The translations under genes and the position numbers were made by a program. From Paraspadella gotoi (lineage: Eukaryota > Animalia > Chaetognatha), in assembly GCA_051294375.1 (NCBI GenBank), contig CM119266.1, positions 15,661,429 to 15,725,428 of the forward strand: DNA of 64,000 nt, read 5' to 3'. Of this stretch, positions 1 through 57,249 are shown piece by piece; the stretch's first letter is position 1, and each line of letters begins with the position of its first letter. Under the pieces are notes generated by a model. The model was not told the origin of the DNA, did not search any database, and saw only the letters and a list, made by a program, of their open reading frames with translations.

Positions 1-177
1 CGAATATCGGAGAAAATTAGTGATTTATGCGAGAAGAAAATTTGAATAACGTCACCTGCGTGTTTTCCCGCGACGACATCGTTTCCACCCTCCCAAAAAA
101 GAACCTTTCACCTGTTCCGCCCCCACTACGGCTCCTCCCTCAGAGAAGCCGATACTGACGACGTTAACATAAAATCG

Positions 178-5114
<4,937 letters not shown>

Positions 5115-6939
5115 CGGCGCTCCTTGGCGGCGTCACCGAACTGTGGGCGCGGCCATCTTTGCCTCGTCGATTCCATTTGTCTCCTATCGTCGAGCTTTGT
5201 CCTTGCAGTGCCAATAAGTTTGTTTTCAAGTTTTCTCTATCGCTGTTATTATTGTTTTGTCTTTGTTTTTCTTCCAGGCGCAAGAAGCCTCATTACCTCT
5301 TTGCATTAACGTTATTAACATTCAACGAATGTTACGAATTTCGGTTTATATATGAATAATTGTTTATTAATCATAATCTATATAAACAATTAATGTCTTT
5401 TTGTGTTTGAGAAGGTTTTTAAAAAAATATCATGTTTCAAATTTCTTGTATAAATACAAGTCTACCTCTTCTTTACCATTTGCCTTTTTTCTATTTTTTA
5501 ATTACATTAGCCACGATCAGAGAAAATCTAATCCTCCTCTTCAACTTCATTTTGTAAGATTTTGTTCTCTTTGAACCCGACACCAGGTGATTGCTAATTT
5601 ATAAAAGGAAAAGAGGTAGACAAAGTAAACTTAGGAGAGAGAGATATAGAGAGAGAGATTATAGATACACACAGACAATTGCAACGCCCCGAACGGCGTC
5701 TCAAAAAAGTCGAAGAAAATCGTTCATTTTCAATTAACCGATCGATCTTTTTGAGTTTCGAGGAAAAAAAAAAGACTAAAGAGGAAAATTTTTTTCTGTT
5801 TCGGGATTTAGATTTTTGGCGACGACTTTCGAACGAGGATCAGGATTAAGAGTCGTTTAAATAAGCGCTTATATGTCCTTAGGGGGAGATAGAGAGTGAG
5901 AGAGAGAGAAGAATGTTTTCGCAAAGGGGGGAAAGAGACCGAGAGGTTTTTGAGAAAGAATGAACTCCAAAAAATGGGGAGCGAACGAGGAAAAGAGTCG
6001 ATTCTCGTGGAATGAAGAAAGAAAATGAGAGGACGACGAGAAAAAAAACATCGCGACTAAAAGTGGCTCATTAACCGCAACTGCACAAAAAGATGCGAAG
6101 GGGGAAGAAAAGGAACGAAATGGAGTTTGTCTGAAAATTTACTCGAGCCGCCCGGTTGTGTTTCTCTCTCCAAATCCTAATTGAATCGGTCGGGAGAAAA
6201 AACCTGGACTCAAAATCTGGAGACGAGACAAATTTGGGTACAAAGACTCGGGGGATTCATTTTGGTCAGAGATTTTCGGTTTCGGCGGCAAAAAAAAAAG
6301 GAACTTTTCCAAAAGAAGGGGAGAAAAAAATTTTCTTCAAATGTCACGCGATGGAATTAAGATTGTTCCCTTTTTTTTCTCCTCTCTCTCTCTGCCTTTT
6401 AATATGTATGTTTTTTTTTCTCCCGGGTGACGGACTATCGACCTTTTCGAGATTGAAGTAAAAAATAGGCCGTCTAGTTTTATATAACTTGGTGACGAGA
6501 AGCTTGACAAACATCAAACGAAGCAAATACAGAATTTTTCAAAACAGAAAATCACAAGAGATAAAAAAAATGAAGAGAAAAAAAAATTTACTCGGAAACC
6601 AGAAAAGGGGTGAGGCTTTTTAGCGAAAAGGGGTGAGGCTCTAAGACGGTGAACAAACTGAAGAAAAGTCGGGGACAAACAAAAGATTCGTCCGCTGGAA
6701 AAAAAGGACGAGACAAAAGGACGAGAGAAGCAGAAGACGAGAAGAAAAAAAAAGATATTACGAACATCGATTAAAAAGAAAAAAAAATTCAAAGAATAAA
6801 GATTTCCCACGTAGTTCGAGTAGTCGGTTCAAAGTTAAATCTATAAATAGAAGACTATCATCTTTTTATAAAAGACGGGATGGAAATGAAAGAAAGGAAC
6901 GAAAAAAAAAGATAGACAAAGACATAAATACGAAAAAAT

Positions 6940-9453: not shown

Positions 9454-9898
9454 ACCTTTTGTATCTCGTTTCCATCCAAAAGAAAAAAGCAAAAAGACTT
9501 TCTTTGCGCAAATTAGTCCAACTTAGGATCGTTTTTTTTTCCGCCGGCTCCGGTTAAACTTAAAGAATCCAAAATTATTTTAAGCGTAACGGAACCAAGG
9601 GAAAAAAACAAGTATTCTCTTGATGTAAGGTTAAAATTATTTTATGATCAATTTTAGAATATTACTTCCTGGGAAAACAAGAAACGAAACAAAGTAGTAA
9701 AAAAGAAAAAAAAGTCACGCTTGACGAGTTAACTCACTCTCCGTTACTTTACGTTTTCCACTCCCAGTTTGTGGCTCAAAATTAAAACTAAAAAAAAACA
9801 CCGAAATCTCGAATGAGTCTTTTTGGCAAAAATCGAACGTCATTGTTCGTTATCTTATATCATTGACTTCCTCTAATAATCGCTTATAAACCGTCGCC

Positions 9899-11133
9899 AT
9901 GGAAACCTCGCGACGCACCCCGCCACGCCCCCCGTCCTTTGAAAACCGCGCCTACTTCGACCTCCCCATGCCAGAACCCCCGCCATCCGTGAAAACTTCT
10001 TCGCCTCGTCCCCGACCGACCGGGAATTCGCCGCCCCCTGAAATCGGCGACGGCGTCTCGGCCGGAAGGACCTACCGGCGTTCGACGACTCCCCCTCCTC
10101 CTCCTCCGCCGCCGGAAAGACGCTGCGCTGTGGGCGCCGCCGACGACGAGGAAATCGACGAGATGGGAGGCAAGAAGGACGCTTCCTCCTCCTCTTCCTC
10201 CTTTTCCGACGCGAACAAAAACCGGTTAAACTTTCCCGGGAAATTCCCGACTTCTCAGATCGAAGGAATTCCCGTCGCCGTCGACGACGAGAGCCGAGAC
10301 TCGAACGCGGAACCTCGTCGAGTCGAAGGAAGAGACAATCCCGCCTTCGCCACCGAGGCGCAACAAAAGCAAAGACGTCAGCAGCAGCAAAGACGACAAC
10401 AACAGCATCAGCAGCAGCGACCAACGCGAACGTATCAACGTCCGGCGTCGGAAATGCCGTCGAACGGCGCCGCAGTGGATTTTGGACCGGCGTCGTCGCC
10501 GAGGCGTGGGGAGAAGAATGGCGCCGGCGGTTATAACCTTTACGGTGAGGAAAAGGGGAAGAGTTGGGTCAGACCGATCAATAGAGATTTTTATATACCT
10601 TTACTTTAGGGCCATTTATTTTAGGCTTCCATTTTTTTGGCTTTTTTTTACTTTGATCTTTAAATATTGGATACAACTTACAAAAACGCTATTACGTTAT
10701 GTAACGAATGAAATAACGCAGTGAATAACTGAATAAGTACCACAATAACTTAAAAAAACCAAGAAACCAGAATATGTAAATTTAAAAATGAGACTATCAA
10801 AAAGTTTGCATAAGTGAAGGTAGTAGTTTTATATGTTGATACTTAATATTGGCTTGATTCTTTTTATAAACAAATTTAATTTAATTAGATTGACGTTGAG
10901 CCAAATTATTCTTTTTAGTAGACTCCACCAGCATGGACTCCCTATTTTAAAGTGTTTATAAAAGCTTAAATTATTGCAATTTTTACGAGGCAGAACTCAA
11001 ACGGAGAAACAGAGCAACATTGGAAAATGTCTAAGTCTTAATTCTTAACACACAAAAGCCTTAATACACAAAAGAGTACAATAGATCGTTGGGAAGAAAA
11101 CGTTAAAATTAAGAGAGGAAGAAAGATAGGGAG

Positions 11134-11196
<63 letters not shown>

Positions 11197-12686
11197 CGGT
11201 GTTTGAATTGACACAACATGTGGATTACAGTAGTCATATAAAGGCGGAAGTAATCGATTTTGAAGCTTAAGCTGTTGACTTTCGTTCTTCGTTCGACATA
11301 TAGAAAGTTTTTCACGTAAAGACAGTAAATAAAATGTCGTCAACTCCCTTAGGTAACAAGGCCTACCCCAAAAAGCCGAACGACGACGACGACGACGACG
11401 ACAAAGGATGTTACGTCCGCCATCGACGTTTTCTCGTCCTCGCTGTCTTCATCGGTTTCATCGTCGCTCTCGTCCTCATCATCGTCTGCTCCGTTTTCTT
11501 GACGAAGGTCTCCAAGGGAAGCGGGGATGGAACGAGGTGAGGTCGGGCTTTGGCCGCCTTTTTTTGACTGTAAACAAAGGAAGAAGGTGGGAACTTAGTT
11601 TTGATGTGTTCCATTTCTAATTGCATTTGCCGTCGCGAATGCTCGAGTAAATTGTAAAATCATGTACAACATGTAAATCGCGTAAATCTCATCATTGCCG
11701 CTCTGTTTCATAACATCAGCCCCGTGGACAACAAAACAAAACCAATACCCACGTTCAGGTGAATGGAAAACAATCTCATATGATCATATACTTTTAAAAA
11801 GACTAACCAAATACAGACGTAGCAGGATTACTATCTTAAAAGTACGCATCGAGTTTTTCTATTTGAATTTAAAACGTAAATGTTTCTTTTTTTATCCATG
11901 ACTAATAGGAAAATGATATTAATGAGTCAGCTTAAAGAAGAACTCTTTGCTTCCCTTGCTGAGTAATCGTTGTTTGTTGCGGACCGGTTTTTCTATCCGA
12001 CTTACCTCCTGACCTTTAATCAAAGACCCTAACCAAGATTCTAAAACCGGGTTGAAGACTTTCTTTGACTCAGTTTTATTAAAACTCGTACGTTGACCTC
12101 ACTAATCCTCACCTAGATAGATAATCTTCTAATTTTTCTAACGTGACCCAAAAACCCGAATACCCACCGCACAATTCCGAACCTGCATCTCATCGAAAAG
12201 GCCCATCCTCTCTCCGCAACCACTTCCCACTTTTTTTTCCGAATGATTGTATCTTTTCTATTTCACACTTTGTTTGATCGTAAATATGATGAACGTTTTC
12301 AAATTATGTAGACGCATAATTTTTTTTTTTTTAGCACCATTTTTTTTTTGGAGGGAAAAGGATATGAAAAAAAAAGACGAATGTGACACTTAGGGGATTG
12401 AATCTGAAAAACCGTCTGACAAAAAAGAAAAAAACAGAAGGAAAAAGAGACATAAACTGTAAAAGGAAATAAAGATTGAAAATGATAAAGAAAACATTAA
12501 GAAATGGGGAGAGATACCGATGACAGGAGACGGAAAAGAAGAAAGAAGAAAAAAACTGTGCGACAGAAACAAAAAAAAAGAAAAAAGAAAAAAAAAACCT
12601 GGTAAAAAGAAATGAACGGAAAAAGAATGAATGAAAGAAAGAAAGAAAGAAAGAAAGAAAGCAAGAAAGCAAGAAAGAAAGAAGGA

Positions 12687-12746
<60 letters not shown>

Positions 12747-13073
12747 AAAGCAAGCAAGCAAGCAAAAGAGCCAGAGCCCGAAACCCTAAAAAGAAAAAGG
12801 CTGAGCCCAAATATGTATTCCTCCTCCTTTCGAAATCTCGACACAATGACAAACGAAAAGAAAAAAAAGAAGAAAGATGAAAATAGAGAAACCGTCAGGA
12901 CTTAAGTCAGTTCTTTCATAGAGAAATCACCGCCATCACCGATTTGTGAGGAAAAAGGAAAGAATCGGTCGACGCCAAAAAAGGAGACGGAGATAATCTC
13001 ATCCATAAAATAAGAGAACGAATCGCTAATAAGGAAATGTCCTTTTCTCGACCTTGTTCCCGCTTCCAATCTT

Positions 13074-13104
<31 letters not shown>

Positions 13105-15530
13105 CTCTCTTCTTCTCCTCTTCTCTCTCTCTCTCTCTCTCTCCCAAACCTCGTCCCTCCGCAATCCCCCCATTTAGACCACTTCCGGTCCCGACCCGCG
13201 GGATCCCCGCCATTTGTCGAACATGGCGACCTATGGAGACCCTCTTCCCTCTGACGATTCCTGCTCTGAGGCGTCGGACCCGCTGAATCTGCCCCCCGCG
13301 CCGCTGGAGAGATGGTTCAACAAGGAGATGTTCGACGATTTGTTCCCCAAGGTAGAACGAGTCGTGAGGGGAATCTCGAATCTGTTTTTTTTTTTTTTTT
13401 TGCGCAGGGTATCGGCGTGTCTTTCTCTCCATCTCTTTAAGGCTTAAAATATCTGACGTCTTTCTGTTTTTATGTATTTCTAATACAAAGAATTTGATAT
13501 GAATTTGTAAACAACGATTTTTTGGGGGTATTTCTAATTAAGTGCTTGATGAGAAACCTCCGTCTATTTCTTTGTCAGTCTGTATGTTTCTCGTTTTCTC
13601 TTGATCTGTCTGTCTCTTTATAAGTGTTTTTTTTCTTTCTCATTGTGACCGTTTTTTTCAATTTTCAATTTTTAAATTCTTACGATCTTAGAGGAGTGAT
13701 TTTCTCAGTGAGATCAAGACATCTCGAAAGAGAGAAAATGTTTTAATTCTTTTCTTGATTCATATTTTTTTTTTATTAAAAAAAAAAGGGTTTCAATTTA
13801 AAAATGAAAAAAAAAAAACTTTCTTGCCCTCCTTAAGGCCAACCTCGGTTGGGGACCCAAGAAGTGCGCCCCCTACAACTACCAAGCCTTCGTCATCGCC
13901 GCTCGTTATTTTCCGGAGTTCGGCGACGAGTTCGTCACCCACGACGCCGTCGGCCGGAAGTTGCCCAATTTGAACAACGACAACGACAAGTGGAAGGTTA
14001 ACCGACGCGAGTTGGCGGCTTTCTTCGCTCACGCCATCCAGGTAAAAAATTAAGTTTTTTTTTTCTTGATTGGCTAATGTCGTAAAATGTATGTACATAA
14101 TTCCTAAACAACTGCGACGCCCATCCTCGCCAATTCTACCTCAACCCTCTCTTCCCGCCTTTTCTTCAACAGGAAACGGGTGAGAACAACTTGGACCTGT
14201 TCGAGACGATCGGGAAGAGCGACCCCGTGACGGCGGAGAACTGCTTCTACCGCGGAGGCTTCTTCAATTGGTTCGAGGGCGGCCCCGTCTCGATGCTCGT
14301 CGACAACCGCGGCGCCAGACCCGAGGATGGGGTGCGATGCAATGCGGCCGGATTGTATTGCAGCACTGGAGACAATAAATTCCTGCATCCGTGCAACAAG
14401 GTCATTCCGAGTTCGACGACGACTAACAAAAAAAACTTTTAACAAGAAACAACCGCAACCTAATTTTTTAATAGCTACCTTAGAAAACTCTTAAGTCTCT
14501 CAACTAACTCCAAGAGTCCTTCCTTTCTCCAGGAAATGGACGGAATATATTACCGCGGGTGCTACTTCGGTCGCGGCGCCATCCAGATCTCTTACAACTT
14601 CAACTACGGCCTCTTTACTCGCTGGCTGCAACGTCGTGGCGTGACCCACAATGGGAAGCCTATCGATCTGCTGCGCGACCCCAACCTGGTCATCACCAAA
14701 CGCGACCCTCCGCTAGCAATCCTCGCTTCCATGTGGTTCTTCATGACGCCGCAGCCGCCGAAGCCTTCGATGCACCACATAATCATCGGGAAATACGTGA
14801 GCAAATTTGTGACTGTGATACGAGTGTACGTTTTTCTCTTTATTTTTTCATATTTCCCTTCCCAGGTCAAATAATTTTGTTACTAAAGTTTGAATTCAAT
14901 GTTAATTCAATTCTCGCAATCGACAGCAGGCCAACAGGCCAACAGGAAATGGTTTATTTAAGACCTCCGTCCTTCTTTTATGATAATATAAGATATTGTT
15001 GTTGTTCGTCCACATATTACGATAATAAGTTTTGTTGTTAACCTTTTGTCCATTCCGCCCAGGTCTCCCCCGACCCCGACTACTCCGGCTCCGTCCTCGG
15101 CCCCACCTCCCTCGTCATCAACAACGAGTGCAACGGTGAGGACGCGGGGTTGGCGGGCGGTTCGGGCGAGTCGCGCCGCATCAAGGCCTTCAAGTGGTTC
15201 TCCGACTACTTCAGCGTCGGCATCGAGGAGGATCCCAAGACTCTCTCGTGCAAAGACTTTTCCGTGCGGGACTTTCGGCTGCCCCAGGCGCTGCTGGGCG
15301 GGCGGGAGCAGCACGTGACCTGGGACATGAATTGGCAGCGACCGGCGTATCTTCGTCCGTGCCAGTGCGCGCAAGCGTCGTACCAAGGAATCATTTACGC
15401 GATGGACGAAAAGATTTATCCCGAGTACAGGGAAGTCAACCAGGAGAACCGCCGGTGGTGCGAGGGGATTTTGGATGCTCTATGGCCCAAGAATCAGTCA
15501 TGCGTGGGCGTGCCCAACGGGCCGATTTGA
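9899..15530 (+). CDS. Glycoside hydrolase family 19 chitinase, probably with N-terminal cytoplasmic tail and type II TM anchor
   Basis: Catalytic exons 13178-13351, 13838-14041, 14173-14400, 14533-14796, 15063-15530 join in phase 0 and give MFDDLFPKANLGWGP, AARYFPEFG, RELAAFFAHAIQ|ETGEN, NWFEGGP, YFGRGAIQISYNFNYG, WFFMTPQPPKPSMH, SLVINNEC, RRIKAFKWF (GH19 motifs). Upstream exons 9899-10544 (Pro-rich) and 11353-11536 (TM FLVLAVFIGFIVALVLIIVCSVFL) join each other in phase. Their link to 13178, possibly via 11720-11758, is off by 1 nt. Confidence 0.85.
12630..12765. repeat. (AAAG)n tetranucleotide microsatellite (also 20188-20280)
   Basis: Directly visible. Confidence 0.95.
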
Positions 15531-17687: not shown

Positions 17688-19929
17688 CCGATTTTAAGGT
17701 GAGATTGATGGACGCAAACGGCTTGTATCGTCAGCGATTGATGGTTTAGCGCCGATGGGAATCAGTTTTAGCTCTGGTATAACTTATGGCTTAATAGTTT
17801 GATTAATAAATGAAGCCCGTCGAGATTTACGATCTTTGTCTCATCAATTTAAAATTTAGTTTTAAAACACTTAAAACACGATTGTCGAGGATCTGGTTAA
17901 TGTAATTTTTCTGAGATTTTTCTTTCATGATCTGTTTAGAATTGGAATCTGGAAATACATGTAGTGAGAGACCATAAAATAAACGCATTTTATCAGTGCT
18001 CGAAAAAAGGAATGGCAATATTTTTTCCTTCCACGTTTTCTAGAAAGCATAATTATAGTAGAATGGCCTCATAACCTTTTAATTTTTTTTTGTATGAGTT
18101 GACCTTTTGTCACTTCCTTTCGAAGTTTTTGTTCGTTTTTTTTTCAGTCCACAAATTCCTCCAAAACTTCAGTAAATGGCAAACTCATTCTTACATATGA
18201 ATAATTACATAATTTTTTTGGAGCAAATTTTCATAACTAATTTTTTTTCAATTTTAGGCAACGGATTTTCACAAACTACGAATTCGCCTGAAAAAACACT
18301 TGAATATTAGACATCATTTTACATACATATAAAGAAACGGTAATAATTTTTTCTAACCGAAAATCGGAGATTTCTTTACCCACGCCGCGATGAATTTTCG
18401 GCGACAATTGATGGAAACCTTCTTCGACTTAATATTTCTTTCTAACTGGCGCCAATGGTGCCGACGACGAGTCCAAGACTCCTTTGAGCCGCCACGCCCA
18501 TAAAGCATGCTTTTCAAACTTCTTATTCTGTTTATTTCGGCATGACAGTAAAGTATTAACACTCAGCTACAAAGAAACACCGCAGTATATAACCCACAAT
18601 TATTTACCGAGCTTTGCCAAGTAACTAACAAGGTTTGGAGGACTTGAACAATTCCCAAAAAAGCTAACAAAAAACAAAAATTAATAAAAAAAAACTTACG
18701 TAAGTCTTAGGAAGTCTGGTTCAGTGACAAAGCAAAGACGAGTCTATTAACTCACGATCTAACGATAAAAGGATAAAAGGCGAAAGGCGCCATCACGAGG
18801 GTAAGAATAGAGGCACACTCTACATCGCACGAAGACCCATAACAAAAACTTAAGAGCTATTCGGACAGATAGAAAGTGAGAGAGAGAGTGAGACGGGGAG
18901 AGAGTGAGTCCTGGGAAAGGCGACGACAAAGAAGGGGTCGAGCGACTAACAGCGAATAAAACGATCGAGATTGAGAACGAGACATTAACTCCGACCCCCG
19001 ACGCTTCTCGTCTCTCCCTCTCTCCTCAAATCCGCATCCTCGACGAAGGCACGAGTCCTTCCGGTTTTTCCCTTCGTTTCTTCTCCGCGAGAGTTCACCA
19101 CTAGATTTTTAGCACGTCTCAGCCTCGTTCCTCATCGAACGAAAAAAAAGGAGCATCGACGGGGGGAAAATAGAATCGCGACTCCGACTGAGTTAAATTT
19201 AAATACGAAAAAAGGGCGATTTAAATGGCAACGCTGGAGACAGAAATATTATTTGCCGAAGAGCCCGTGTCAGAAGCAGAAAGCATAGAGTTGAAATTTT
19301 GAATTCGAAAAAAGATAGATGCGGAAATAAACGAATACAAAAAGAGAAAAAAATCGGAAGATTATTAAATAGAGATCTATAGAATATTTGATGGGCGTTC
19401 TTCCTTTTTAGCCGTCACACGTGACGAAGAATGAGAGGCGGTTTGTGTCACGGAATAATCGTCATTAATATCACGAAATTCCTTTTTTAAAAATCGAGAG
19501 ACAAATTAAAAAAAAAGAACAAACTGTGGCGCATGAGATACTAAAAACCTAAAAAACGGAGAAATTAATACAACTAATCGACAAGAAGGTTCAAATAGCA
19601 TTAGAATCACATTAACCTGGTTGACGATCATAAAAACTTACAACCATTAAAAGAAATCTACCTCCTCTTTTACCCCCAAAAAAAATTTAATGGAAAATTG
19701 AGGATTGGAAGCAGAAGAGAGTAATTCCAAAGAAGACCGTCGGAAAAAAAAAACCTTTTTCCATTGCTCTCCTAAAAGGGTCGGCCATTTTTACTTTTGT
19801 GAGTCGTAACCCAACTTCCCTCCCTCTCCTGATTTTTTTTTCTCGAAAGAATCGAGAGAGCGAGAGAGAGAGAGAGGAGGTGGGTCGAATCGTCTCCAAC
19901 TTGACCATAGATTTCAAAACACAGATACG

Positions 19930-20188
19930 ATGGTATTTTCTGTCGAGAAATTGAAGACCCGGTCTTCTATCAATCCGCCCACGCCGACGACAACGACAAC
20001 GCCCACGCGCAGAATTAAATTGGGCGGCAACGTCGGTGTCCGCCCGGCCGCCGCGTTGCTGGTTCTGGCGTCGGCGCTATCGGCGGCCCCGGCGGCCGAC
20101 GGTGAAAAGGGAAGCTCCTGGAAAATCGAATCTGATCGGGTGAATCAATTAATTTTAAAAAAATGTAATCATTTCAGGAAATACAAAA

Positions 20189-20260
<72 letters not shown>

Positions 20261-23200
20261 AAAGAAAGAAAGAAAAGAAATTTTAAAAAAATCATTCCCT
20301 TCCCAGCTTTTCACCCGATGCGAAACCCTTCCTTCTCCCCACGCGGCCGTAGTAGACTTGCCTCCGCCCCCCTCGGGGGTCACCATGTACAGAATCCGAG
20401 CGTATTCGCCCCAGCAGTACGCCCACTTGGTCAAGAACGAGTCTAACGAAATACATTTTCGGTTCGACGAACCCACGACCCCCAACGGCGAAATCCTTCG
20501 CTACGAGGTCACCGTCGACGACGTCACTCGACTGATCATCACGGAATTTACCAGAAGGTTGGTTGTTGTTGAACTGTTCTTTATTCAACTCTAAATTCTT
20601 TTTGACATTACTCTAGTTATCAATGGTCTTCCGATGTGTGAAGAGTTAAATCTTAAATTAATTTTGTGTATCCGCTGTTTTTGTTTGACATTTGTCGGTG
20701 CTAACTGATTTTTGCCTCGGTCGTCTCTGACTGAAAAATACTTCTTTACTAAACCCAAATATTTCTCAAAAGGTCAAACAATGCCTATTTGGTGCAATTA
20801 AAGCCGTGGACGCTCTACTACGTCCGCCTACGGGCGTGCAACGCGGGCGGATGCGGCGAGTCAAAAGTGGAGGCAATCCGGTCGGCGCCTCAAGTACCGG
20901 AGGGATTGCCGAGGCCCTTACTTCTAATGAGATCGGACGCCAGATCAGTTTTGTTCGGGGGGTTGCCGCGAGTGCTCAATAACGCCCTAACGAAAGTCCA
21001 ATTGAGGCGAGTGTGAGACATGATATGGTTACCGTTAAACCACTCAAGAGCATTTGGGGTCATGATTGTAAATTGAACAATGTGCGATTTGTGCATGTGA
21101 AGAGTAGTAATCTTGTAATTGATCATTGATCGTCGACTTACTTCTAGTTACTGGGACTTTTAGAAATAATTAAAAACTTGAAAAGAGAAAGGTTCTTTAA
21201 AATATTTTCCATCATAATTCGTAATCTTGATGTTTTTTGAACTATTTTTTTTCTTTTCGACCTTTTAAAACCTTAATCTCTGAGCTTCTTCAATTTTTAA
21301 ATTCTTCATTAAGGACTAGTAAAAAAATGAAAAAACAATGAATGGAAAAAGTAGGCAATTGAAAAATTGGCGTAAGAAAATAGAGATGAATGGGAAAATT
21401 ATAAAACAAAACAAAAAATACCAAGGTACCTCATAACCAAAAAAAATAAAAAAGCTGAATCTCTTCTGGGAAATTATGAGATTGTGGTTGCCCCAAAAGA
21501 CCCGCTGAGATGGGACATACTAAATAATATTGCCAGTAGTTTGACGCTAATCATTTTTTTCAGACTTTACAAAAGCTTCAGCGGCAACATATTTGGCCAA
21601 AACATGCACACGTTATCGTTTAACAACTTTGAAAAAGGGCACATCATACCAGAGCCTGCCCCGGATTATGGTCAAATGAAACGAGGAGAAAAAAGCATCT
21701 ACTACTTTCAAAGCCGGTTACTCAACAGCAAACCGGCGTGGTCCAATAAGTCCGAAATCATTTATCAGCGAGAAACTTGCTCAGGTGAATAATTGCGCTG
21801 TCGGCGTATCACTGCGTACCCTTTTCTCTTTTGTCACTCTGGGCGCTAACAAAGTTTGAAACCCCCCCCCCGTCCCTATCTCTCGCCCTTCCCAGACCCC
21901 GATGTGGGGTGTACCTCTGTGATCATCCCAAGGCAGACGCCGTCTAAGATTTCGCCGACGACAATTCTCCGCACGACGAAGACGACCATGGACGTGGAGT
22001 GGGGGAAGCCTAATGCGCCCAGAGGAACAGTCGTCAGTTACAATCTATACATCTTCTCCGTCGTCGATGGATTCGTCAAGAAGATTGTATTTCCGCCCGA
22101 TCAAACTTTCACGACCGTCGAGGGTGAGAAACGTCGTCGTCGTCGTCCTCGTTTGAACGTCGTTACATGTAGTTTAATGTCAGAGAATGAGAGGAAATCT
22201 TGAGATCCTCAATGGATTCCATTTAATGAGAAAAAGGCGGAACGAATTCTAAAATTTATTAAACTGAATTAATATTATACGGTTTTTTTTGGTTTTTTTT
22301 ATTTTTGGTTCAAAAATTCCTCAAAACTGTTTTATTTTGCTATGAAAAGAGAAATATTTCTTTATGAAAATAAAGTTAGGANNNNNNNNNNACTGTTTTA
22401 TTTTGCTGTGAAAAGAGAAATATTTCTTTATGAAAATAAAGTTAGGAATAAGAAAGAAATTAAAAGAAATAGCTTTGAAGATTGCGTTTATGTTTTATTA
22501 ATCAAATATATTCTCCATGAAAAAATGTTATAAAAAAGTTATTATTTCTTGATCTAAAATACAGTTCCGACCCTTGTCTACAGGATTGCGTCCTTTTACG
22601 ATGTACGACGTACGACTAGAAACTTGCGTTAAGTTAGATTCTCACTTGGCAAAAGAAAACACAGACATAGGTCTGCCCGAGACCATTTGCTGCATCGGGA
22701 TCGCCGATCAAAACTTGACTCTGAACCTCGGACTGGTGAGAAAGTAGAAAAAAAGAGTTGGGCAATGGGCAATTTGGCATTAAGGCGTAGTTGCAGATCA
22801 AAATTCGAATAGCGAGTACTGAGTAGTAACTATAACAATAGAGAAGAAGAAATAGTTTCATCGGTTTTAGGCGATCACGAAGGAGGACCTTCCGACTGGA
22901 CAGGACCCGCCTATAGCTATTGCGGCCGGTCCAAACAAAGTGCGCCTCTATTGGGGGCCACCGAAAGTAACAAACGGAAATCTCACTCACTACGAGTTGT
23001 ACAGGGATAATCATCTCATGTACCTCATCAACGATGCAATTAATTTAGAAAAGAAAAAGGTTTTCTTAGAGGTAAATTGGGAATACTAGAATCTAAATAC
23101 TGGAATACAAATTAAAATCGTTATTATCAAAATTAACTTACAGGACGACAAGAATCTGCAGCCTAACACTGAATATACTTATTTTTTGGCCGCGAAGAAC

Positions 23201-26200
23201 TTAGAGTCCTACAGAAAAGGTTCCGCGGGTGCGGTCAGTTTAACGGTCAGAGTAAAAACTTTGCCCGGACTGCCCCTCGGCGTTCAACGACCAAGCATTC
23301 TCGTATTGGGTGAGAATTCTAGATGTCACTATATCTACGGGTAATCCATGCGAAACCTTTTTTTTTTCACAGGAGCTCACAGCATCAGAGTAACATGGGG
23401 TGCCAATCCCAACGTCAGTGTGGTCAGGGGACAAGTTGTTGGATTCAGAGTTCAGCTGAGAAAGACACTGGAACCAGACATAAAGGCGGACGAAGCTGTT
23501 TGTCCAGAAATGGATAAACAAGTAGATTTTCTAGATTTGACGGCTTACACTGAATACGAAGCAAGAATTGCGTTGACGAACGAGGTAAGGAAGAGAGAGA
23601 GNNNNNNNNNNAGAGAGAGAGAGAGAGAGAGAGAATGAGACTGAATATTATTATTTTAAATCCAAGGCCGGACATTTTTGGAGTGACTGGGTCGGTGGCA
23701 AGACTCTCATGGCGCCGCCCGTTGGCCTAAAACCTCTTAACATCGACCCATTGGACAGCGGAACGGAAGCTTTGATCACCTGGGGTGAACCGGCAGACAA
23801 GAGAGGTAAATATATAAATCAACATACTCACAACTTAGCTGAAATTATGTAAGTGAGAATTTTTTTACCTACTATTTTTTTCTGTTTTTAACTATTTTCT
23901 TTCCTCCTCTTTTTACGATATGTTATTTTTTAGTCTCTACAAGATTTTGAAATTGTTTAATCAAATCTATTGATTAAGCCTATTGATAAAATTCAAAGTT
24001 TTCCTTTCCTCCTTATTCAGTCAACTACTACTTTCAACATTTTTTGAACTTTCAGGAAAGATCAGCAGTTACAAGATTCATTTCTCGGATACGGAAGTGC
24101 TTGCCTACCTGGGCCTGGCACGGGTGCATGCCATGCGCGGCCTCGAACCCGCCACAGACTATACCATCCGTCTCGTTGCTTGCACCTGCACCGCCTGCTG
24201 CTCACAGGGGAAAAATTTTACCTTCACTACTCGAGAGATTGCCCCAAGAGCGCAACCTGCACCGATCTTACTGGAGCCATCAAAGGCCAACAGCGTTTCG
24301 CTCATTTTTCGCCTCCCCATTATCCCCAATGGATTCGTCATCTTGGTGGAGCTGTGGCGAAGCGAGCGGTCGGATGGAGGGGAGCGGAGACGGCGCTCTG
24401 CAGCGACGGAAGCGGCGGCGCCGTCGACGTGTCTCTCCTCGACGCCGAGTTTGATCTATAAAACGACTGACATTAAAAATGAGTTCAATTGGGTGGATGA
24501 CACCGTGGGACCGGCTAAAGTCTACTCCTATCAGGTCAAATGGACCCAATGCGCCCTTTTTTTTACTACATATTTAATGTTAAATGAATGCAAGTATTTG
24601 AGAGGAAGTCAGTTAGAAACTTTAAATTTGTTTCCTCACTCGTCATTTAGGCAATAAAGATATTGGTTTATCATGATATAGTTTAAATTCTTAAATAGGT
24701 TAGTTTGAAAAACACCCCTTTTTAAATTAATCAAGTATTGTAAACAAAGTTGTTACGTTTACACCCCCCTTCCGCCCGCACAATACAACAAAAACCAGGT
24801 GAAAGCTTTTAACAGCGCTGCCTCAGTGTCCAGTCCCTGCCTCCTCGTCGTCACTCCCGACTCCACACCGCAACATCTCAACCCGCCGCAGGTGTCGGCC
24901 AAGTCCCCGACGTCTTTGTCGGTCAGCTGGAACGCGCCGGCGACGCCCAATGGGAGGATTCTATATTACCAGGTTTTTTTTCCCTTTTTCAAGGGTCTAT
25001 TGAGAATTTTAAAAAGTTAGAATCGTTTTTGTTTCATTTTCATTTGACAAACAATTATAACCCATTTAATCCAGGTGCAACGGAACAACAACGTGCCGCT
25101 CTACTTCGACGCCTCCGCCGCTCGTACATTTGTCGACGAAGAACTCGTCCCTTTCACCAATTACACCTACGTGGTGACGGTCTGTAATGCGGCCGGCTGC
25201 ATCGCCAGTGCGACCACCACGCTGTCCACGCCCATGGACGCTCCAAAGGGCGTCCGCTCGCCGCGCCTCGTCGCTGTCACAATGAATTCGGTTTCTGTCG
25301 GATGGGGTCCACCTCTGATTTCTAACGGGATCGTCGACGCGTACCGACTGCTTGTCGACGGAAAGGTAGAGTTAGGATAAAAATAATAAAAGCTACTTGA
25401 TCTATGTCAATTTGTTTTCACGATATTTCTTTCACTTAATTTCCTTAGGTTATGGGTTTTTAACTCAGTACATTTTCATATTTACTATATTTGATTATAT
25501 ATATCTTTGTTTTGAATTTTCTCATTCTGTGTAACTTTCATTCATTCATTCATTTATTCATTTATTTATTTTTTTCTTAATTCAATCATTCAAATATTCA
25601 TTCATTCATTTCCTTTGTATTTATTTATACAGTCTTTTTTCATTCATATGTTTTTAGAATCACTAATATGATATATATAATTAAATTGTTAAATAAAAAA
25701 CCATTCCAGGTGGAGATCGGCGGGATGATCTTCAGTCACACCGTCATCGACCTTCTTCCCTTTACCTCCTACGATTTTCGCGTCCGCATCTGCACGGACT
25801 CAGGCACGCGCTGCACCACGGGTCCTTCGCTCATAGTCCGCACGTCGGAGGCGGCGCCGCGGGATCTTTCGGCGCCGTTCCTCAACGTTATCAGCGCCGA
25901 GGCCATCGAGGTAACGTGGGCGTTCCCCAAAACCCCAAACGGTGTCATCCGCAAGTGCGAGGTTTTTCGGGACGTCGACGGGATTCCCGTCTACTCTGGT
26001 CTCGAGAAAAGCTACGTGGACAAAGGGCTGGACCCCGGCATTCGCTACTCTTATTGGATTCGATGCCACAACAGCGTCTATCCACCGGCGACCAGCGTCA
26101 TCTCTCGAACCACGACTCTCTCCTCTTCTCCCTTGGGTCAGAATCCCCCGGCGCTGGTCGCTCTTTCCAGCAGCGCCATCCGCGCCCACTGGACGCAGCC

Positions 26201-26677
26201 GTCGACCACCAACGGAGAGATCGTTGCCTACCGTTTGTACAAGAATGACTTGGAGGTTGTCTGCGAAGGACTCTTCTTCCATTGCGTCGTCGAGAATCTC
26301 CAATTCTACACCGAATATCGATTTCGGGTCGAGTCGTGTACGACCGTCGGATGTGTCAGGTCAATCAACGCCTACCGATCGACCGCCGAGGCCGAGCCAG
26401 AGGTGCTGGGGCCGCCCGAACTGTCGCCAATCCGTGCCGGCATCAAGATCCGCTGGCGGCCGCCGGAACGGCCTTATTCCAATCCGATCTCGCTCGTCTA
26501 TGAGGCGGAGAGGCGGGCCATCTTCGACGCAACGGTGGGACCCGACATTGTCGGCGAATCCAAGCGTATCTACAGGGGAATCATGACTTACTACGAGGAT
26601 CACGACCCGAGTCTTCAACCTTACTCCAGGTACAGAGTGTCTTCTTATTTATCATAATAGATCACATAGAAAATATA

Positions 26678-26732
<55 letters not shown>

Positions 26733-27910
26733 TCTCCCTTTCTCTCTCTCAGATACGAATACCGCGTTTCGGCGCAGAACTCCGCCGGTAAGGTCGTTTC
26801 CGACTGGCGTCAAGAGCGCACCTCTCAAGCGCCGCCCGAAACCATCGATTCTCCGGAAGTGATCGACGTCCGCGGGTCACGGGCCGTGGTGAGGATAACG
26901 TCGCCGACAAAACCGAACGGCGTCGTCATATCTTACGGCGTTTACCTCAATGGCACCCGGCGCCCCGTCTCGGCGGCCGGCGCCCTACAGGTTCTCGAAG
27001 GACTTACTCCTTACACTCTCTACTCGGTGGTTGCGGAGGCGTGCACGAAGGGCGGTTGCACCAAGAGCGTTTCGACGAGCCTCTTCACCAACCCCTTGCT
27101 TCCATCCGGCCTCGATCCACCCACTATCATGGACGTTCGTTCGACGTCGGCCGTCGTCTCCTGGGATTTTCCGGCTGAGCGAAACGGCGACGTCTCGAGA
27201 TTCGAGCTTTGGTCCAGGCTCGGCTGCCCACCGGCGCCGCAGCCTGTCCCTGAGGCCTGCCCGACTGACAATCCGCGACGACTGGTTTTCGCCGGCAAAG
27301 AGTTGACACGAACGTTGACGAAATTGAATCCCTATGTCAGTTATGAAGTCGTCCTTCGCGCCTTCAATGACGAAGGCTTTGTGGAGACGGCTTGGGTCGA
27401 CTTTCGGACGAAACCCTCCGCACCGGAAACGATCTCGGCGCCTAAAGTGGGCGTGGGCGCCGAATCGCGCTTCGTCGACGTTGATTGGTCCGGCGTCTTT
27501 CGACTCAACGATCGACTTCAACGCTACGAGGTCAGCGTCGACGGGAAGAGGGTGTTCGAAGGCCTCGACCATCGATTAGTTTACGACTTTGGCGACGACG
27601 ACGACCAAGACGACGATAACTACGACAACATCGTCGAGATCGTCGTCGCCGTAAAAACGGCGTCCGCAACTTCGTTCGTTAAAGCCGCGCCAGTTCTGTA
27701 CGATCGAAGTCGTTTAGCGACTGTGGCGACGCGTCCTCCGCCGACATCGGCGCCGGTGAAAATGTTCTACGAGGAGACGTGGTTCGTCGCCTGCGCTATC
27801 GCTATGGCCGTCTTCGCCGCTGCCGACGCCGTTTGCCTTTTGTTTTACTTCAGATTTCGCGACTCGCCGCGGACGAAAACGAAATCAAAGGTAGGATGAT
27901 AATAATGATG

Positions 27911-27997
<87 letters not shown>

Positions 27998-28054
27998 GGA
28001 AAGCACATATATTTGTTAAATCCCATATATAGCCTTTGACCATATTATATTTCA

Positions 28055-28093
<39 letters not shown>

Positions 28094-28532
28094 TATAATT
28101 CAAATAAATTAAATACAAGTATTTTACACAAAACATTAAAGAATAAAAAATTAAACTAACATCTTCTTCCTCCCTCAGTTGACGCTCGGCACCAAAAAGA
28201 ATAGAACAAAGGCGCCCATCGCATCATCGTCGACGCCCCTTCCGGCCATCGCCTACCCGGCGAGACCGGCGCCGGAACCTCGCGTCTTTCCTGCAGAGAA
28301 GGAACAGGTCCGACGCTTCGTCCGCGATCGGCGCCGGCGAGAGGGGGACAAAGACGACGCGATGACAACGACAGCGACGACGACTTCGTCGTCCCGACGC
28401 CATGAGGTTTTAGGGAGGCGTGGCCGGCCCATTATCGTCGTTGAGAGAGAGGATCCTCGGGAGTTCGACGCCAGGAGGTTGAATCGCGTCGCTATGGAAA
28501 CGCGAAAGATGGAGACGGTGACGCACATTTGA
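19930..28532 (+). CDS. USH2A: Usherin-like protein A (FN3 array, TM, C-terminal PDZ-binding motif), ~1760 aa, 16 exons
   Basis: Exons 19930-20101, 20356-20557, 20773-21006 (GC donor), 21564-21784, 21896-22123, 22584-22735, 22871-23071, 23144-23309, 23373-23584, 23667-23805, 24056-24534, 24799-24972, 25075-25365, 25710-26629, 26753-27890, 28179-28532 total 5283 nt in frame. Usherin-type FN3 repeats (ACNAGGC/ACTKGGC, W..P..PNG.I..Y), CPPAPQPVPEAC loop, FYEETWF before the TM, and terminal VTHI (human USH2A ends DTHL). Confidence 0.85.
22382..22391. other. Assembly gap (10 N) flanked by a ~56-bp duplicated overlap; second gap at 23602-23611
   Basis: N runs; actgttttattttgct(a/g)tgaaaagagaaatatttctttatgaaaataaagttagga occurs on both sides of the first gap. 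Confidence 0.95.
27900..27996. repeat. (AAT)n microsatellite in the last intron of usherin-like A
   Basis: Directly visible; a second run lies at 28056-28093. Confidence 0.95.
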
Positions 28533-29516: not shown

Positions 29517-31098
29517 CTCCGGTCCCCTAACTTATCATTTGATATTATCTTTCAAAATCAATACCAAACTCTTTTCCAGTGCATTGACATCGCTTCCCCC
29601 AAACTCTTCCCCCTCCCATTTCCACCACCTCCGCCAACCATCACTGAGACGCGCGCCTTCAGCGCCACCGACGGCGAAAGCGGAAGCAACGAAATTCACG
29701 TGAGCTTCGATTCGCCAGAAGCTGGAGGCGTCGACCGATTTGAAGTTCACCTCGACGAAGCGTTTGCGATGAACGTTGATTACACAGAATCCGGGTGAGA
29801 AAATTTTGTTTACAATGAATTAAAGCGTCTATTCTGCATTTGATCCCCACCCCCCAAAATCCACAGAACCCACCGCGCAGTCCTCGCCCACCTAACCCCC
29901 AACACTTTCTACTACGTCCTCGTTCGCGCTTGCAACGCCGGTGGTTGCGGCACCTTCGATATTGCCACGAAGCGTTCGGCACCGGAAGTGTCGCGCGGGC
30001 TGCGAGCGCCGGTCGTATTCATTGGTGGAGGCGGATATCCTGTGGTGATGATGTTCCAACCGCTGAAGATATATCAAAGATTAAAAGATGTGGTCTTAAG
30101 GTACCATGGATATAATTTTTCATTACTCTCCCACTCTCTTCCTTTAATTAATTGCAGTATATTCTAATTTCCTTAAACAAAAAAAAAAAAAGAATAAGAG
30201 CAACAGTACGTAAAAGAACTATTCCCTCTTCTTTCTCCGCAGTCTCTTCAAAGCCACGTCCACCCACCCACGAGGGCGCCACCTGCGCGATGTCTTCTTT
30301 TCAAGTTTTCTCGTCGACGACGCCGGATTTCGTCCGCCATCTGTTGTCGACGATTCGCCGTCGGGCAAAGCCGTCTATTTTGTCAAATCGCGTTTTCCCG
30401 AGGAGATTGGCGCTCCGGAGGCGTGGTCTAATGACAGCGTTGTTGATTTTACCTTGTCGGATGACTGTAGCCGTAAGTTTCAGGAGGATAAATTGATAAC
30501 GTTCTTCGAAGTAATTCACTTTTAATTTCTAATTCTATTATTTTTTTTATTATTATTATTATTTATTGATTTATTGATTTATTTATCGTTTTATTTTTAG
30601 TGCTCTTAGTCTTGCTCAATGCTTTTTTACCGTTTAAAGCGTCAAATTGTTCGTTCTTCTATTTCAGAAAAAAAAATATGATTATAACGTCTATTTTGCT
30701 GCCATCCTTTTAGACGCGTCACGTGGCTGCGCCTCTTTCTTGTTGCCTCCTTCGACGCCCCGTTCGGTAGCGGCGCCCAGAGTTTTTGGCGCCACCGCCG
30801 ACGCTTTCAACGTCAATTGGAATTCGCCGGATGAACCTCACGGCGTGGTCGTCTCATTCGGCGTCTTAGTCTTTTCCGTCGCGAGAGGAAAAGAGAAAGA
30901 GGTGGAGTTTCGCCCAGATCAATTCTCATCCACCATCAAAGGTTAATTGATGGATTTGATTAATTTGATTGTTTCGATCGATTTGATTTAAATGATTAAA
31001 TTTGTTTATTAATTGACGGATTAATGGCTTTGATTTTGATTTCGTAGATAAATTTAATCGATTAATTAACTCATTGGTCGACTGATAAATTTATTTTG

Positions 31099-31131
<33 letters not shown>

Positions 31132-34100: not shown

Positions 34101-36258
34101 CCCCCATCGGCTAAAAGCCGCTCCAGCGCCACCACTACATTCGCCTCTGCTCCCGAGGGTCAAGAGCCTCCAGAATTGAGGCCACTGTCGTCATCAACTG
34201 TAAAAGCCTCGTGGAAAGAGCCGAAACTCTCCAACGGCGTCGTCATGACTTATCGTTTGTTCCGGGACGATCGTCTCGTGGTCTGCGAAGGCTTGGTCCT
34301 CAAATGCGTCGTTGACGATCTCAAACCTTTCTCCAACTATCGCTTCCGGGTTCAGTCCTGTACCTCCAGAGGTTGTGTACAATCCTCAAACGCCTACGTC
34401 CGGTCTTTAGAGGCCCCGCCTGATGGCATGGACAAGCCTGTGCTCGTTGCCTCAAGCACAGGGGTCAGGATTCGGTGGAAACTTCCGGCGACACCCAACG
34501 CACCACCACAGTCTCTTTTCTATTGCGTCGAAAGATCAGAAGTGCTTTCTTCTACGGATGACGCCCCTCTCCATTCTCGCCTTATCTATCGCGGTTCCTT
34601 TACTTTTCACGAAGACGCTGCCTTGCCGCCATTCTCTCTCTTTGCCTATCGCGTCATCGTCGAAAACTCTGCAGGCAACGGGACTTCCGGTTGGCAGAAA
34701 ATTCGAACAGCATCAAAGGCACCATCATCGCTCGAGCCTCCACGCGTGGTCCAGGTCACTGTCGGCCAAGTGGTCGTCGAGCTGCTACCACCCAATATGC
34801 CGAACGGTGACATAGTCGCCTCCAATGTTCTCGTCAATGGAGCACGCCGGGGCACTGCGGCCGGGCAACATCTCGTCGTCGTGGATGGTCTCGTTCCTAA
34901 CTCACGCTACGAAATCGCTGCTGAATCTTGCACTTCAGGCGGTTGCGTTCTCAGTTCTCCGACAGTCATAGTGGCTCAGTCCACGCCACCTCAAGGACTC
35001 GTAAATCCGACTGTCGAAATCGTCTCGCCCACTTCAGTCCTTGTCAAATGGCGCCCGCCTCGCAGCGTCAATGGCGTTTTGCAAAGATTCGAACTGCGAG
35101 TCGGCACCGTTTGTCCGCAGCCTCCACAGCCGGTCTCGTCGTCTTGCTCTGCCCCGGATCCGACGCTTCGCTACATAGGAAACCGCCTCTCAACGATCCT
35201 CTCTGATTTGACGCCATACTCTGCCTACTCTCTGTTTATTCGCGTCCACAACACCGACGCCGCCTCTGACTCGGAATCGGTTCCGTTCCGAACGCCGCCG
35301 GCGCCGCCAGCGGCTGTCAAGGCACCTTCGGTGGACCCGGGGCTAACTAAAGACGCAGTTGACGTACAGTGGAAGAACAGCTTCCTACTAAATGATAGGT
35401 TTGATTATTTCATTGGTTCTTATATTACTATTTTTATACGTAATTATAAGTTATAATTGTGTTTTATGCCTTGTTTTTTAAGTGGTTTTTTTTTCTTTTC
35501 TCTTTTTCGTTTCTCCCATATCCTTTCTCTTTTCAGCATATGAAACGCTCTTTCTATCCTTTCCATTTTAAAGTACATTTTTTTTTTAACCGTTCTCCTT
35601 ATCCTCAACCAGGTTGAAACGCTACTCGCTCTACGTTAACGGGGATGAAGTGTTTAAAGGTCTCGTCACAACTTTCGTCCTAAAAGTAGAAGGCGACGCC
35701 GACGACATCCTAGAAATTCGCGCCTCCGTCGAGACAGAGCGGCATCCCGTCGCCGTGACCACGCCCTCTGTCTTTTACGACGTCGCCCTTCGTCGCGTCC
35801 TCTTCGCCGCCCCGAAGACGACTAATTTCTATCGTCAAGCTTGGTTCTTCGTCGTCGTTATCGTCGCTGCTTTCGCCGTCGTCGTCGTCATTGTCGTCGT
35901 CGTAGTTCGACGATGTAAAACTAAAAGAGGGAAATCAACTCCGAGATCAGTTGCGAGCTCGAGAACGAAACTTCCGCTGCCGCCGAGGAAAAGACAGAGG
36001 ACCCTGGCGGACGATCCTGTCGGAGACGCGACTTTTCTTGAAGCTTTTGAAGGCGAGCGGCGGAAAGAGAAGGTCCGGCCCGGGAGACCAAAACCTAGGG
36101 CGAACCGAGCGAACGCCCAGAAGAGAGAGAGAGACGGTGGCGCCCATAACCCTGGCGCTCAGAAGAAGCAGATATATCTTCGAGAAAGCGCCTCGTACAA
36201 ACCCAGAAAACGACGGGATAGAAGGCGGAATGTGCAGGATGCGATAACTCATATTTAA
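29194..36258 (+). CDS. USH2A: Usherin-like protein B, tandem paralog of A, ~1724 aa, 12 exons, one apparent 1-nt frameshift
   Basis: Exons 29194-29406, 29580-29794, 29867-30100, 30243-30472, 30714-30941, 31155-31252, 31376-31730, 31885-32102, 32456-32594, 32703-33111, 33210-35398, 35613-36258. Collinear with A (SPCLVVTTPDS, PLYFD, APRELDAPFLNV, VVCEGL, CPQPPQPVSSSC, FYRQAWF-TM, terminal ITHI). The frame breaks near 33088-33092. Confidence 0.82.
32184..32217 (-). ncRNA. Minimal type I hammerhead ribozyme motif (Penelope-like pLTR remnant)
   Basis: Minus strand reads gcg CTGAAGA A GACTC gtatgt GAGTC GAAA C AT GTC cgt: intact core, 5-bp stem II and palindromic ACATGT stem III. The unit is bracketed by aatttgaagaga direct repeats. 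Confidence 0.7.

Positions 36259-57179: not shown

Positions 57180-57249
<70 letters not shown>

What the first reader, a model, noticed from the sequence alone, without database searches (positions are those of the whole stretch)
9899..15530. GH19 chitinase in an animal, apparently membrane-anchored with a long cytoplasmic tail
Known: animal chitinases are mostly GH18; GH19 is typical of plants and bacteria and patchy in animals (nematodes, some insects via horizontal transfer). Seen: an intron-rich GH19 with both putative catalytic Glu (HAIQ|ET, NWFEGGP). From memory its motifs resemble nematode GH19s, yet it sits beside usherin genes, which I believe C. elegans lacks. Upstream exons encode ~240 Pro/Gln-rich residues with FENRAY and DNPAF sorting-like motifs, a basic RHRR and a 24-aa TM, with no N-terminal signal peptide. 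Inference: a type II ecto-chitinase or chitin/peptidoglycan sensor, either an ancient metazoan GH19 lineage or an old domesticated transfer. Caveat: the junction to exon 13178 is out of phase by 1 nt; one extra A in the A-runs of candidate exon 11720-11758 would fix it.
Basis: partly seen in the sequence, partly recalled or inferred. Interest (0 to 1): 0.75.

Follow-up and report, generated by a model that had tools for sequence, protein, structure and literature searches.

The report
Arrow-worm membrane-anchored plant-type chitinase
An expressed gene of what is very likely an arrow worm joins a long, predicted cytoplasmic tail and a predicted membrane anchor to a plant-type (GH19) chitinase domain whose closest named relatives are jellyfish and hydroid proteins with secretion-type N-termini, so it likely cuts chitin while tethered at the cell surface.

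Summary
The gene is real and expressed. Contigs of one public run splice all four GH19 introns, join exon 1 to the TM exon, and join the TM exon to exon 13178. The frame break is not at 11720-11758: the RNA has one more G behind 13227, which opens a 735/722-aa frame and restores a conserved Cys-Trp. Assembly error versus null allele is unresolved. The 5' end carries the last 10 nt of the chaetognath spliced leader behind an AG at 9658, so the host is very likely an arrow worm and the N-terminus is complete, with no signal peptide. The domain keeps 119 of 125 clade-conserved columns, both Glu and all 13 conserved Cys. It is closer to medusozoan GH19s (about 55%, four shared indels) than to nematode ones (about 50%). 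None of 171 near-full-length homologs shows this long polar tail plus anchor. Trees hint at a cnidarian origin, but AU tests reject no alternative, so transfer is not shown. Verdict: new architectural variant of a known enzyme family in a phylum where my searches found no report of it. The scan had not noted it elsewhere.

The parts
9658..9898 (+). 5' UTR, starting at a trans-splice acceptor (AG at 9656-9657); one short out-of-frame uORF from 9813
   Evidence: contig covers 9658 onward with 10 loose 5' letters equal to the 3' end of chaetognath SL2/SL4; uORF
9899..10544 (+). coding exon 1: low-complexity, predicted cytoplasmic tail (res 1-215) with FENRAY, YFDL and DNPAF motifs
   Evidence: covered by RNA contig, two synonymous differences (9967, 9973), joined to 11353; no Pfam family at threshold; motifs are resemblances only
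11353..11536 (+). exon 2: poly-Asp, RHRR, predicted signal-anchor helix (11430-11501, res 242-265)
   Evidence: 182 loose letters behind 10546 match its length and start; its last 28-30 nt are joined to 13178; hydropathy
11720..11758 (+). optional 39-nt cassette exon in the stalk, adds an N-glycosylation sequon (N281-K-T)
13178..13351 (+). exon with stalk and first conserved Cys pair; the window lacks one base at 13227/13228 relative to the RNA
   Evidence: one G put in behind 13227 in the depth-34 contig (table 4); the RNA frame matches the family's C-x2-W-x2-[YF]G pattern
13838..14041 (+). GH19 exon ending ...AAFFAHAIQ
   Evidence: spliced joints
14173..14400 (+). GH19 exon with E417 (14173-14175, general acid position) and E451 (14275-14277, likely base)
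   Evidence: E451 assignment inferred
14533..14796 (+). GH19 exon with YFGRGAIQISYNFNY and the THNGKP insert
   Evidence: PF00182 E 1.7e-15; joints
15063..15530 (+). last coding exon: end of GH19 core plus a clade-specific Cys-containing C-terminal extension; stop at 15528-15530; 3' UTR runs past 15760

Best explanation
This is one trans-spliced gene of what is very likely an arrow worm, encoding a predicted type II membrane protein whose outer GH19 domain is likely an active endochitinase held at the cell surface or in secretory vesicles. The ~240-residue N-terminus would stay in the cytosol, the 24-residue helix would act as an uncleaved signal-anchor, and the Pro/Thr stalk (with an optional glycosylated 13-residue cassette) would carry the disulfide-bonded GH19 domain outside. 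E417 (acid) and E451 (base, inferred) would hydrolyse beta-1,4 GlcNAc chains by the inverting mechanism established for GH19. The gene most likely arose when a copy of a secreted, medusozoan-type GH19 gained two upstream exons in place of its signal peptide. Its most likely job is to trim or remodel the animal's own nascent chitin (grasping spines, teeth, epidermal matrix) next to chitin synthase, as the membrane-bound GH18 enzyme CHT7 does in beetles; the NPxF/Yxx-hydrophobic-like tail motifs would control its traffic. Shown: exon chain, 5' end, conserved residues, kinship. Inferred: topology, activity, origin by duplication, site of action. My odds: one intact transcript 0.9; type II topology 0.85; active chitinase 0.8; own-chitin remodelling as main role 0.45.
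For: Spliced joints and exon links. Spliced leader match. RNA frame restores conserved Cys303 and Trp. 119 of 125 columns conserved in at least 90% of 54 homologs are kept, including all 13 Cys columns, E417, T418, E451, R506, G507, Y517, N600, R619. A model of the 55%-identical jellyfish homolog (pLDDT 88) matches plant GH19 chitinases at Z 23-24, rmsd 2.3-2.7 over about 235 residues. 127 of 171 near-full homologs have an N-terminal hydrophobic segment and the median N-terminal extension is 23 aa, so the domain normally works outside the cell. A second, 1557-nt GH19 contig in the same run has the length expected of an ordinary secreted form (inference from the position of its match). Chaetognath spine and epidermal cells express chitin synthases and chitinases (PMC12460157, passage read). 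CHT7 precedent (PMC5891080, passages read).
Against: The window's own DNA is frameshifted and no DNA reads could be checked. The branch is long (0.82-1.1) and six conserved columns differ (L313, N338, E406, F562, H574, Y580), which could mean relaxed or changed function. The flanking charge difference is modest (RHRR before, two Lys after). No chitin-binding module is present. There is no expression site, activity or topology experiment. Profile alignments to plant enzymes did not line up the second Glu.
Confidence: 0.6

Rival explanations
1. Same protein and topology, but it is a gut-surface digestive enzyme that breaks down prey (copepod) chitin, working beside the secreted paralog.
For: Chaetognaths prey on crustaceans (general knowledge); the nearest relatives are from plankton-eating medusozoans; type II anchoring is usual for brush-border hydrolases (general knowledge).
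Against: Brush-border hydrolases usually have very short tails (recalled); a secreted-size GH19 contig of greater depth is already in the same run (though depth is a poor measure).
Confidence: 0.22
2. It is a chitin or chito-oligomer capture or sensing receptor, in which the tail drives endocytosis or signalling and catalysis is secondary.
For: A 240-aa tail with NPxF/NxxY-like and YxxL motifs; long branch and a few changed conserved residues.
Against: Catalytic and subsite residues are kept; the tail has no recognised signalling domain; such short motifs occur by chance.
Confidence: 0.1
3. The sequenced haplotype is a null allele or young pseudogene: the missing base at 13227/13228 is real and truncates the product at 327 aa.
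For: The window's DNA reads that way; the RNA differs from it at two further sites, so it is another haplotype or individual.
Against: A single base missing from a GG run is a common long-read consensus error (general knowledge); every other exon is intact; the RNA frame is open. Even if real, an intact allele exists.
Confidence: 0.08

Closest known systems
Medusozoan GH19-domain proteins (Hydractinia XP_057293495, Rhopilema XP_065069413, Hydra LOC100214594 and LOC100197260, Clytia, Sanderia); uncharacterised database entries
   Same: 54-56% identity over about 430 aa; four shared indels; same Cys pattern and C-terminal extension
   Different: They are about 440-465 aa with a signal-peptide-like N-terminus; no cytoplasmic tail, anchor or stalk
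Nematode GH19 chitinase-like proteins (C. elegans, Trichinella 'Endochitinase B', Trichuris, Strongyloides and others)
   Same: Same wider clade and motifs (HAIQETGEN, YRGGFFNWFEGGP, INNEC, ESRRIKAF); 47-51% identity
   Different: Lack the four indels; form their own branch (100/100); mostly secreted, some with PAN or CBM14 domains
Plant 'loopful' class I/II GH19 chitinases (PDB 4j0l, 2baa, 3cql, 7v91)
   Same: Fold and core residues; the best solved relatives (E 1e-35 to 1e-24; Z 22-24 for the homolog model)
   Different: About 25-37% identity; no membrane anchor; lack the long insert between the two Glu and the ~75-aa C-terminal extension
Insect group III chitinase CHT7 (Tribolium TcCHT7, PMC5891080)
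   Same: N-terminal TM, no cleaved signal peptide, catalytic part outside; proposed to trim nascent chitin. A working analogue
   Different: GH18, two catalytic domains plus CBM14; unrelated fold; TM lies near the N-terminus
Rigifila ramosa GH19 (EukProt EP00004 P000466)
   Same: Early-branching member of the same clade, also with a predicted membrane helix
   Different: Signal peptide first and helix at the C-terminal end (predicted type I); about 40% identity to the jellyfish protein

Membership tests
GH19 (PF00182) | Profile match above the curated cut-off | tested here: met
   57.9 bits against cut-off 25.5 on one exon alone
GH19 (PF00182) | General acid Glu (standard position 67) in A-A-F-x-A-H-x-x-[HQ]-E-T | tested here: met
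   AAFFAHAIQET, E417; aligns with plant HET; positions from PMC8547705 Table 1
GH19 (PF00182) | Catalytic base Glu (standard position 89) | tested here: inconclusive
   E451 is 98% conserved in the clade and aligns by MAFFT with the Glu of a distant GH19, but HMM alignments to plant enzymes skip or misalign this stretch
GH19 (PF00182) | G-R-G-x-x-Q-x-[ST]-x-x-x-N-Y motif, I-N at 198-199, Arg 215 | tested here: met
   G505-R-G-A-I-Q-I-S512-Y-N-F-N-Y517; I599-N600; R619; standard Gly200 is Asn, as in the whole clade
GH19 (PF00182) | Two-lobed lysozyme-like GH19 fold | tested here: met
   tested on the jellyfish homolog P0165, not on the window's protein: Z 24.0, rmsd 2.5, 239 aligned
GH19 chitinase subfamily (CHIT) rather than endolysin (ELYS) | Six-position CHIT pattern (C97, C105, F/L/W151, G190, G192, F/Y/L222) | tested here: inconclusive
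   By eye alignments 4 of 6 fit (both Cys, G192, F222); 151 is Ile and 190 is Val. Fold scores favour chitinases (Z 18-24) over endolysins (Z 9-12)
GH19 chitinase subfamily (CHIT) | Chitinase activity | not testable with these tools
   needs an assay
GH19ED group CHIT 15 (Metazoa) | 60% identity network and loop code 0 0 1 0 0 0 | not testable with these tools
   the group's members were not seen; the loop-poor code fits poorly with best matches to loopful enzymes
Nematode GH19 subclade | Nematode-type lengths at four indel sites and placement inside the nematode branch | tested here: not met
   window 33/19/13/13 against nematode modes 21/14/17/15; outside the 100/100 nematode branch
Medusozoan-type GH19 subclade | Four shared indels | tested here: met
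   named medusozoans 30/19/13/13 in 8 of 8, 7 of 8 (1 unscored), 8 of 8, 8 of 8; the first insert is 3 aa longer in the window
Medusozoan-type GH19 subclade | Supported placement with medusozoans in trees | tested here: inconclusive
   sister to them at SH-aLRT 96 and 92/69, but a better-scoring tree puts it one node deeper and AU rejects none of five constraints
Type II single-pass membrane protein | No signal peptide, one TM helix with basic residues on its N-side, luminal Cys-rich domain behind it | tested here: met
   sequence-level only: complete 5' end, single KD peak at 242, RHRR, 14 Cys behind the helix
Type II single-pass membrane protein | Orientation shown in cells | not testable with these tools
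   needs protease protection or surface staining
Insect group III chitinase (CHT7) | Two GH18 domains plus CBM14 | tested here: not met
   single GH19 domain, no GH18 or CBM14 hit; analogue only

The most novel reading that the evidence does not exclude
Arrow worms took their GH19 chitinase from a medusozoan cnidarian by animal-to-animal gene transfer, kept a secreted copy for digesting crustacean prey, and rebuilt a second copy into a membrane-tethered, trafficked enzyme for shaping their chitinous grasping spines: a borrowed enzyme used in a phylum-defining structure.
Probability: 0.15. Interest if true: 0.82.

Novelty: new variant of a known kind. Interest (0 to 1): 0.52.

Why it matters
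Animal chitin metabolism is usually told as a GH18 story, with GH19 noted for nematodes. Here a GH19 clade spans nematodes, medusozoans, very likely arrow worms, and a non-animal flagellate, while no other named animal group appeared among the listed hits. That pattern means either heavy loss of an old gene or transfer between animals, and it can be tested with chaetognath, ctenophore and anthozoan transcriptomes. The anchored form would be an independent invention of the tethered-chitinase design known from insect CHT7, on an unrelated fold, and gives a concrete candidate for how arrow worms build their spines. It also shows a gene that automatic annotation of this assembly would likely miss or split because of one base.

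Tried and rejected
No whole genome is held for this window, so paralogs, copy number and SL genes could not be searched. The run search listed 3 runs of one study, none on record as RNA, 1 holding the stretch; no DNA run was offered, so the missing base could not be checked. Runs X2 and X3 gave only short pieces. An upstream cis exon for the 10 loose 5' letters is rejected: the only match upstream in the window is at 1476, inside another gene, with no GT behind it. Bacterial contamination is rejected: GT-AG introns, spliced leader, animal neighbours. Tree tests: the first free trees were not optimal (one search found a constrained tree 8.85 log units better); a rerun timed out; in the final set (34 rows, LG+G4) p-AU was 0.12 for window + P0163 clade, 0.39 for window + nematodes, 0.06 for window + P0163 clade + nematodes, 0.33 for window + medusozoans, 0.29 for medusozoans without the P0163 clade: nothing rejected, so neither transfer nor vertical descent is shown. 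The site-heterogeneous tree finished only as a quick search. The two Atlas look-ups returned nematode-dominated GH19 clusters and did not name the P0163 clade. Cluster look-ups gave no names for that clade. The profile alignment to a plant-like protein did not place the second Glu. A tblastn look for other frameshifts in the neighbours was too coarse to tell. No homolog search was left for the tail; Pfam found nothing there. Paper searches with no relevant hit; supplements of PMC12460157 held as text (3 files) have no GH19 term, but its gene tables may not be among them. Earlier-findings look-ups by sequence, words and place were empty. No complex prediction was sent: no partner is claimed.
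Full report
OBSERVATION. The window holds eight coding exons on the + strand: 9899-10544, 11353-11536, 11720-11758, 13178-13351, 13838-14041, 14173-14400, 14533-14796 and 15063-15530, all with GT..AG introns. One exon alone passes the Pfam GH19 cut-off.

RNA. One of 3 listed runs (X1) holds the stretch. It is not on record as RNA, but its contigs skip introns. A 1707-nt contig joins the five GH19-side exons at the four predicted introns and carries one extra G behind 13227. Two loose ends run into exon 13178: the last 28 letters of the TM exon, and 14 letters of the 39-nt exon whose A-runs equal the genome's. A 1081-nt contig covers 9658-10546 and goes on for 182 letters that begin as exon 2 and fit its length exactly. 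So tail, TM and GH19 exons are linked, with or without the cassette. With one base allowed at the break the frame is open for 735 aa (722 without the cassette), and the start of exon 13178 now reads ...AICRTWxTYG..., matching the family's C-x2-W-x2-[YF]G. Whether the window's missing base is an assembly error or a null allele cannot be told without DNA reads; the RNA also differs at two synonymous sites.

HOST AND 5' END. The contig starts with 10 letters that are not in the genome there, directly behind an AG at 9656-9657. They equal the 3' end of chaetognath leaders SL2 and SL4 in Table 3 of PMC2481426 (passages read). A stop at 9887-9889 lies in frame upstream of ATG 9899, so no signal peptide can be hidden further up.

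THE PROTEIN. Residues 1-241 are polar and low in complexity, with no Pfam family; 242-265 are the only hydrophobic peak; a Pro/Thr stalk follows; the GH19 region spans 303-729. It keeps 119 of 125 columns that are at least 90% conserved among 54 homologs, all 13 conserved Cys, E417 and E451. A model of the jellyfish homolog P0165 matches plant GH19 chitinases (Foldseek E 1e-12; Z 24.0, rmsd 2.5 over 239 residues), well above GH19 endolysins (Z 9-12); its last ~75 residues match nothing in these rows and were not searched alone. E417 aligns with the plant general acid (numbering from PMC8547705, passages and one section read). E451 as base is inferred.

RELATIVES. Three searches (in one search only 120 of 213 hits were listed and only 7990 candidates scored) gave named close relatives from nematodes, medusozoans (Hydra, Hydractinia, Clytia, Rhopilema, Sanderia) and the flagellate Rigifila, plus many unnamed marine sequences. 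No named annelid, mollusc, arthropod, deuterostome or anthozoan protein was among the listed close hits; that is weak evidence of absence. The window's protein is 54-56% identical to medusozoan and 47-51% to nematode members. At four indel sites its spacings are 33/19/13/13; the 8 named medusozoan proteins have 30/19/13/13, and 89 named nematode rows have modes 21/14/17/15, with the medusozoan state in 1 of 81, 0 of 73, 0 of 74 and 0 of 76 scorable rows. Rigifila has the short state at both inserts and, by eye, the long state at both deletions, so the shared states look derived. The WVSPD deletion is shared only with medusozoans and the unnamed P0163 clade, not with a further unnamed group of 9.

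ARCHITECTURE. Of 171 near-full-length homologs the median N-terminal extension is 23 aa, 127 have a hydrophobic segment in the first 35 residues, and 11 have more than 80 residues in front. Four have a hydrophobic stretch well inside and just ahead of the core (P0161, P0287, P0293, P0189). Three of these follow an unrelated domain in automatic nematode gene models and are probably fused neighbours (inference); the fourth looks like a signal peptide behind a 40-residue overrun. One partial Pristionchus model (P0178) may have a short signal-anchor. None has a long polar tail followed by a helix. Relatives of the tail itself could not be searched.

ORIGIN. Trees place the window's protein on a long branch at the base of the medusozoan group, outside nematodes. 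A second GH19 contig in X1 (1557 nt, depth 173 against 34) has two flanking peptides that fit the unnamed P0163 clade best (median score 68, range 62-74, 14 rows; named medusozoans median 46, best 67; nematodes median 11). That clade nests inside Medusozoa beside scyphozoans with 97/94 support. If it is the chaetognath secreted paralog, this would point to transfer from a medusozoan. But its identity rests on 20 residues, the contig could be contamination, and AU tests reject none of five constrained trees, including one with the clade outside Medusozoa (p 0.29) and one joining it with nematodes (p 0.06). Transfer therefore remains a hypothesis; old paralogy with wide loss fits as well.

MECHANISM. 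The best reading is a tethered endochitinase with a trafficking tail. Membrane-bound beetle CHT7, a GH18 enzyme with an N-terminal TM, hydrolyses extracellular chitin and organises new cuticle (PMC5891080, passages read). Chaetognath spine-associated and epidermal cells express chitin synthases and chitinases named Chi10 and Chit1 (PMC12460157, passages read; family not stated there). I infer a like role here, with gut digestion and ligand capture as rivals.

NOVELTY. GH19 in nematodes is long noted (PMC1945033, passages read), and the GH19 database paper lists a small metazoan group without naming nematodes or cnidarians in its main text. Ten searches (listings seen) and three supplement files showed no report of a chaetognath GH19, of the medusozoan-nematode clade, or of a type II GH19 with a long tail; the library lacks most subscription papers. 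PMC2566580 and PMC11509761 were read as passages and added nothing decisive. Verdict: a new variant of a known kind, interest 0.52.

Noticed in passing
window 19810-28530 and 29844-36255 (+): Two tandem, collinear usherin-like genes built of FN3 repeats, 35-43% identical to each other, each with a TM helix and a tail ending in THI (VTHI, ITHI), a PDZ-type end. They look much shorter than canonical usherin and no laminin-type domains were seen; the name usherin is recalled.
   Followed up: partly
run X1, 1557-nt contig matching 14232-14276 and 15165-15200: A second GH19 transcript of secreted-form length whose flanks fit the unnamed P0163-P0168 clade; organism B (X2) has a related piece. One member of that clade (P0166) carries a C-terminal PF01549 (ShK, name recalled) domain.
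   Followed up: partly
window 42072-42161 (+): Rfam mir-46/mir-47/mir-281 precursor match, 48 bits against gathering score 44.7.
   Followed up: no
window 51829-63114 (-): Cys-loop ligand-gated ion channel gene (PF02931, PF02932); the loop C region reads FFDTWPEPFPE, without vicinal Cys, so likely a non-alpha nAChR-type subunit.
   Followed up: no
window 46-5200 (+): Secreted multi-EGF (cEGF/EGF_CA) gene with acidic linkers upstream of the chitinase.
   Followed up: no
window 48124-48396 (-): Short exon with ILLRYDLILIQEIRD, which resembles DNase I from memory; no Pfam hit.
   Followed up: no
window 15300-15530; model m4152e5fde237 residues 365-441: All members of this animal GH19 clade carry a ~75-aa Cys-containing C-terminal extension that the solved GH19 structures do not cover; it could be a clade-specific substrate-binding subdomain.
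   Followed up: no
P0027 (Rigifila ramosa): A non-animal member of the clade with signal peptide, Thr/Arg-rich stalk and C-terminal helix: membrane anchoring seems to have arisen separately, in the opposite orientation.
   Followed up: partly
window 9813-9866 (+): A 17-codon out-of-frame upstream ORF in the trans-spliced 5' UTR.
   Followed up: no
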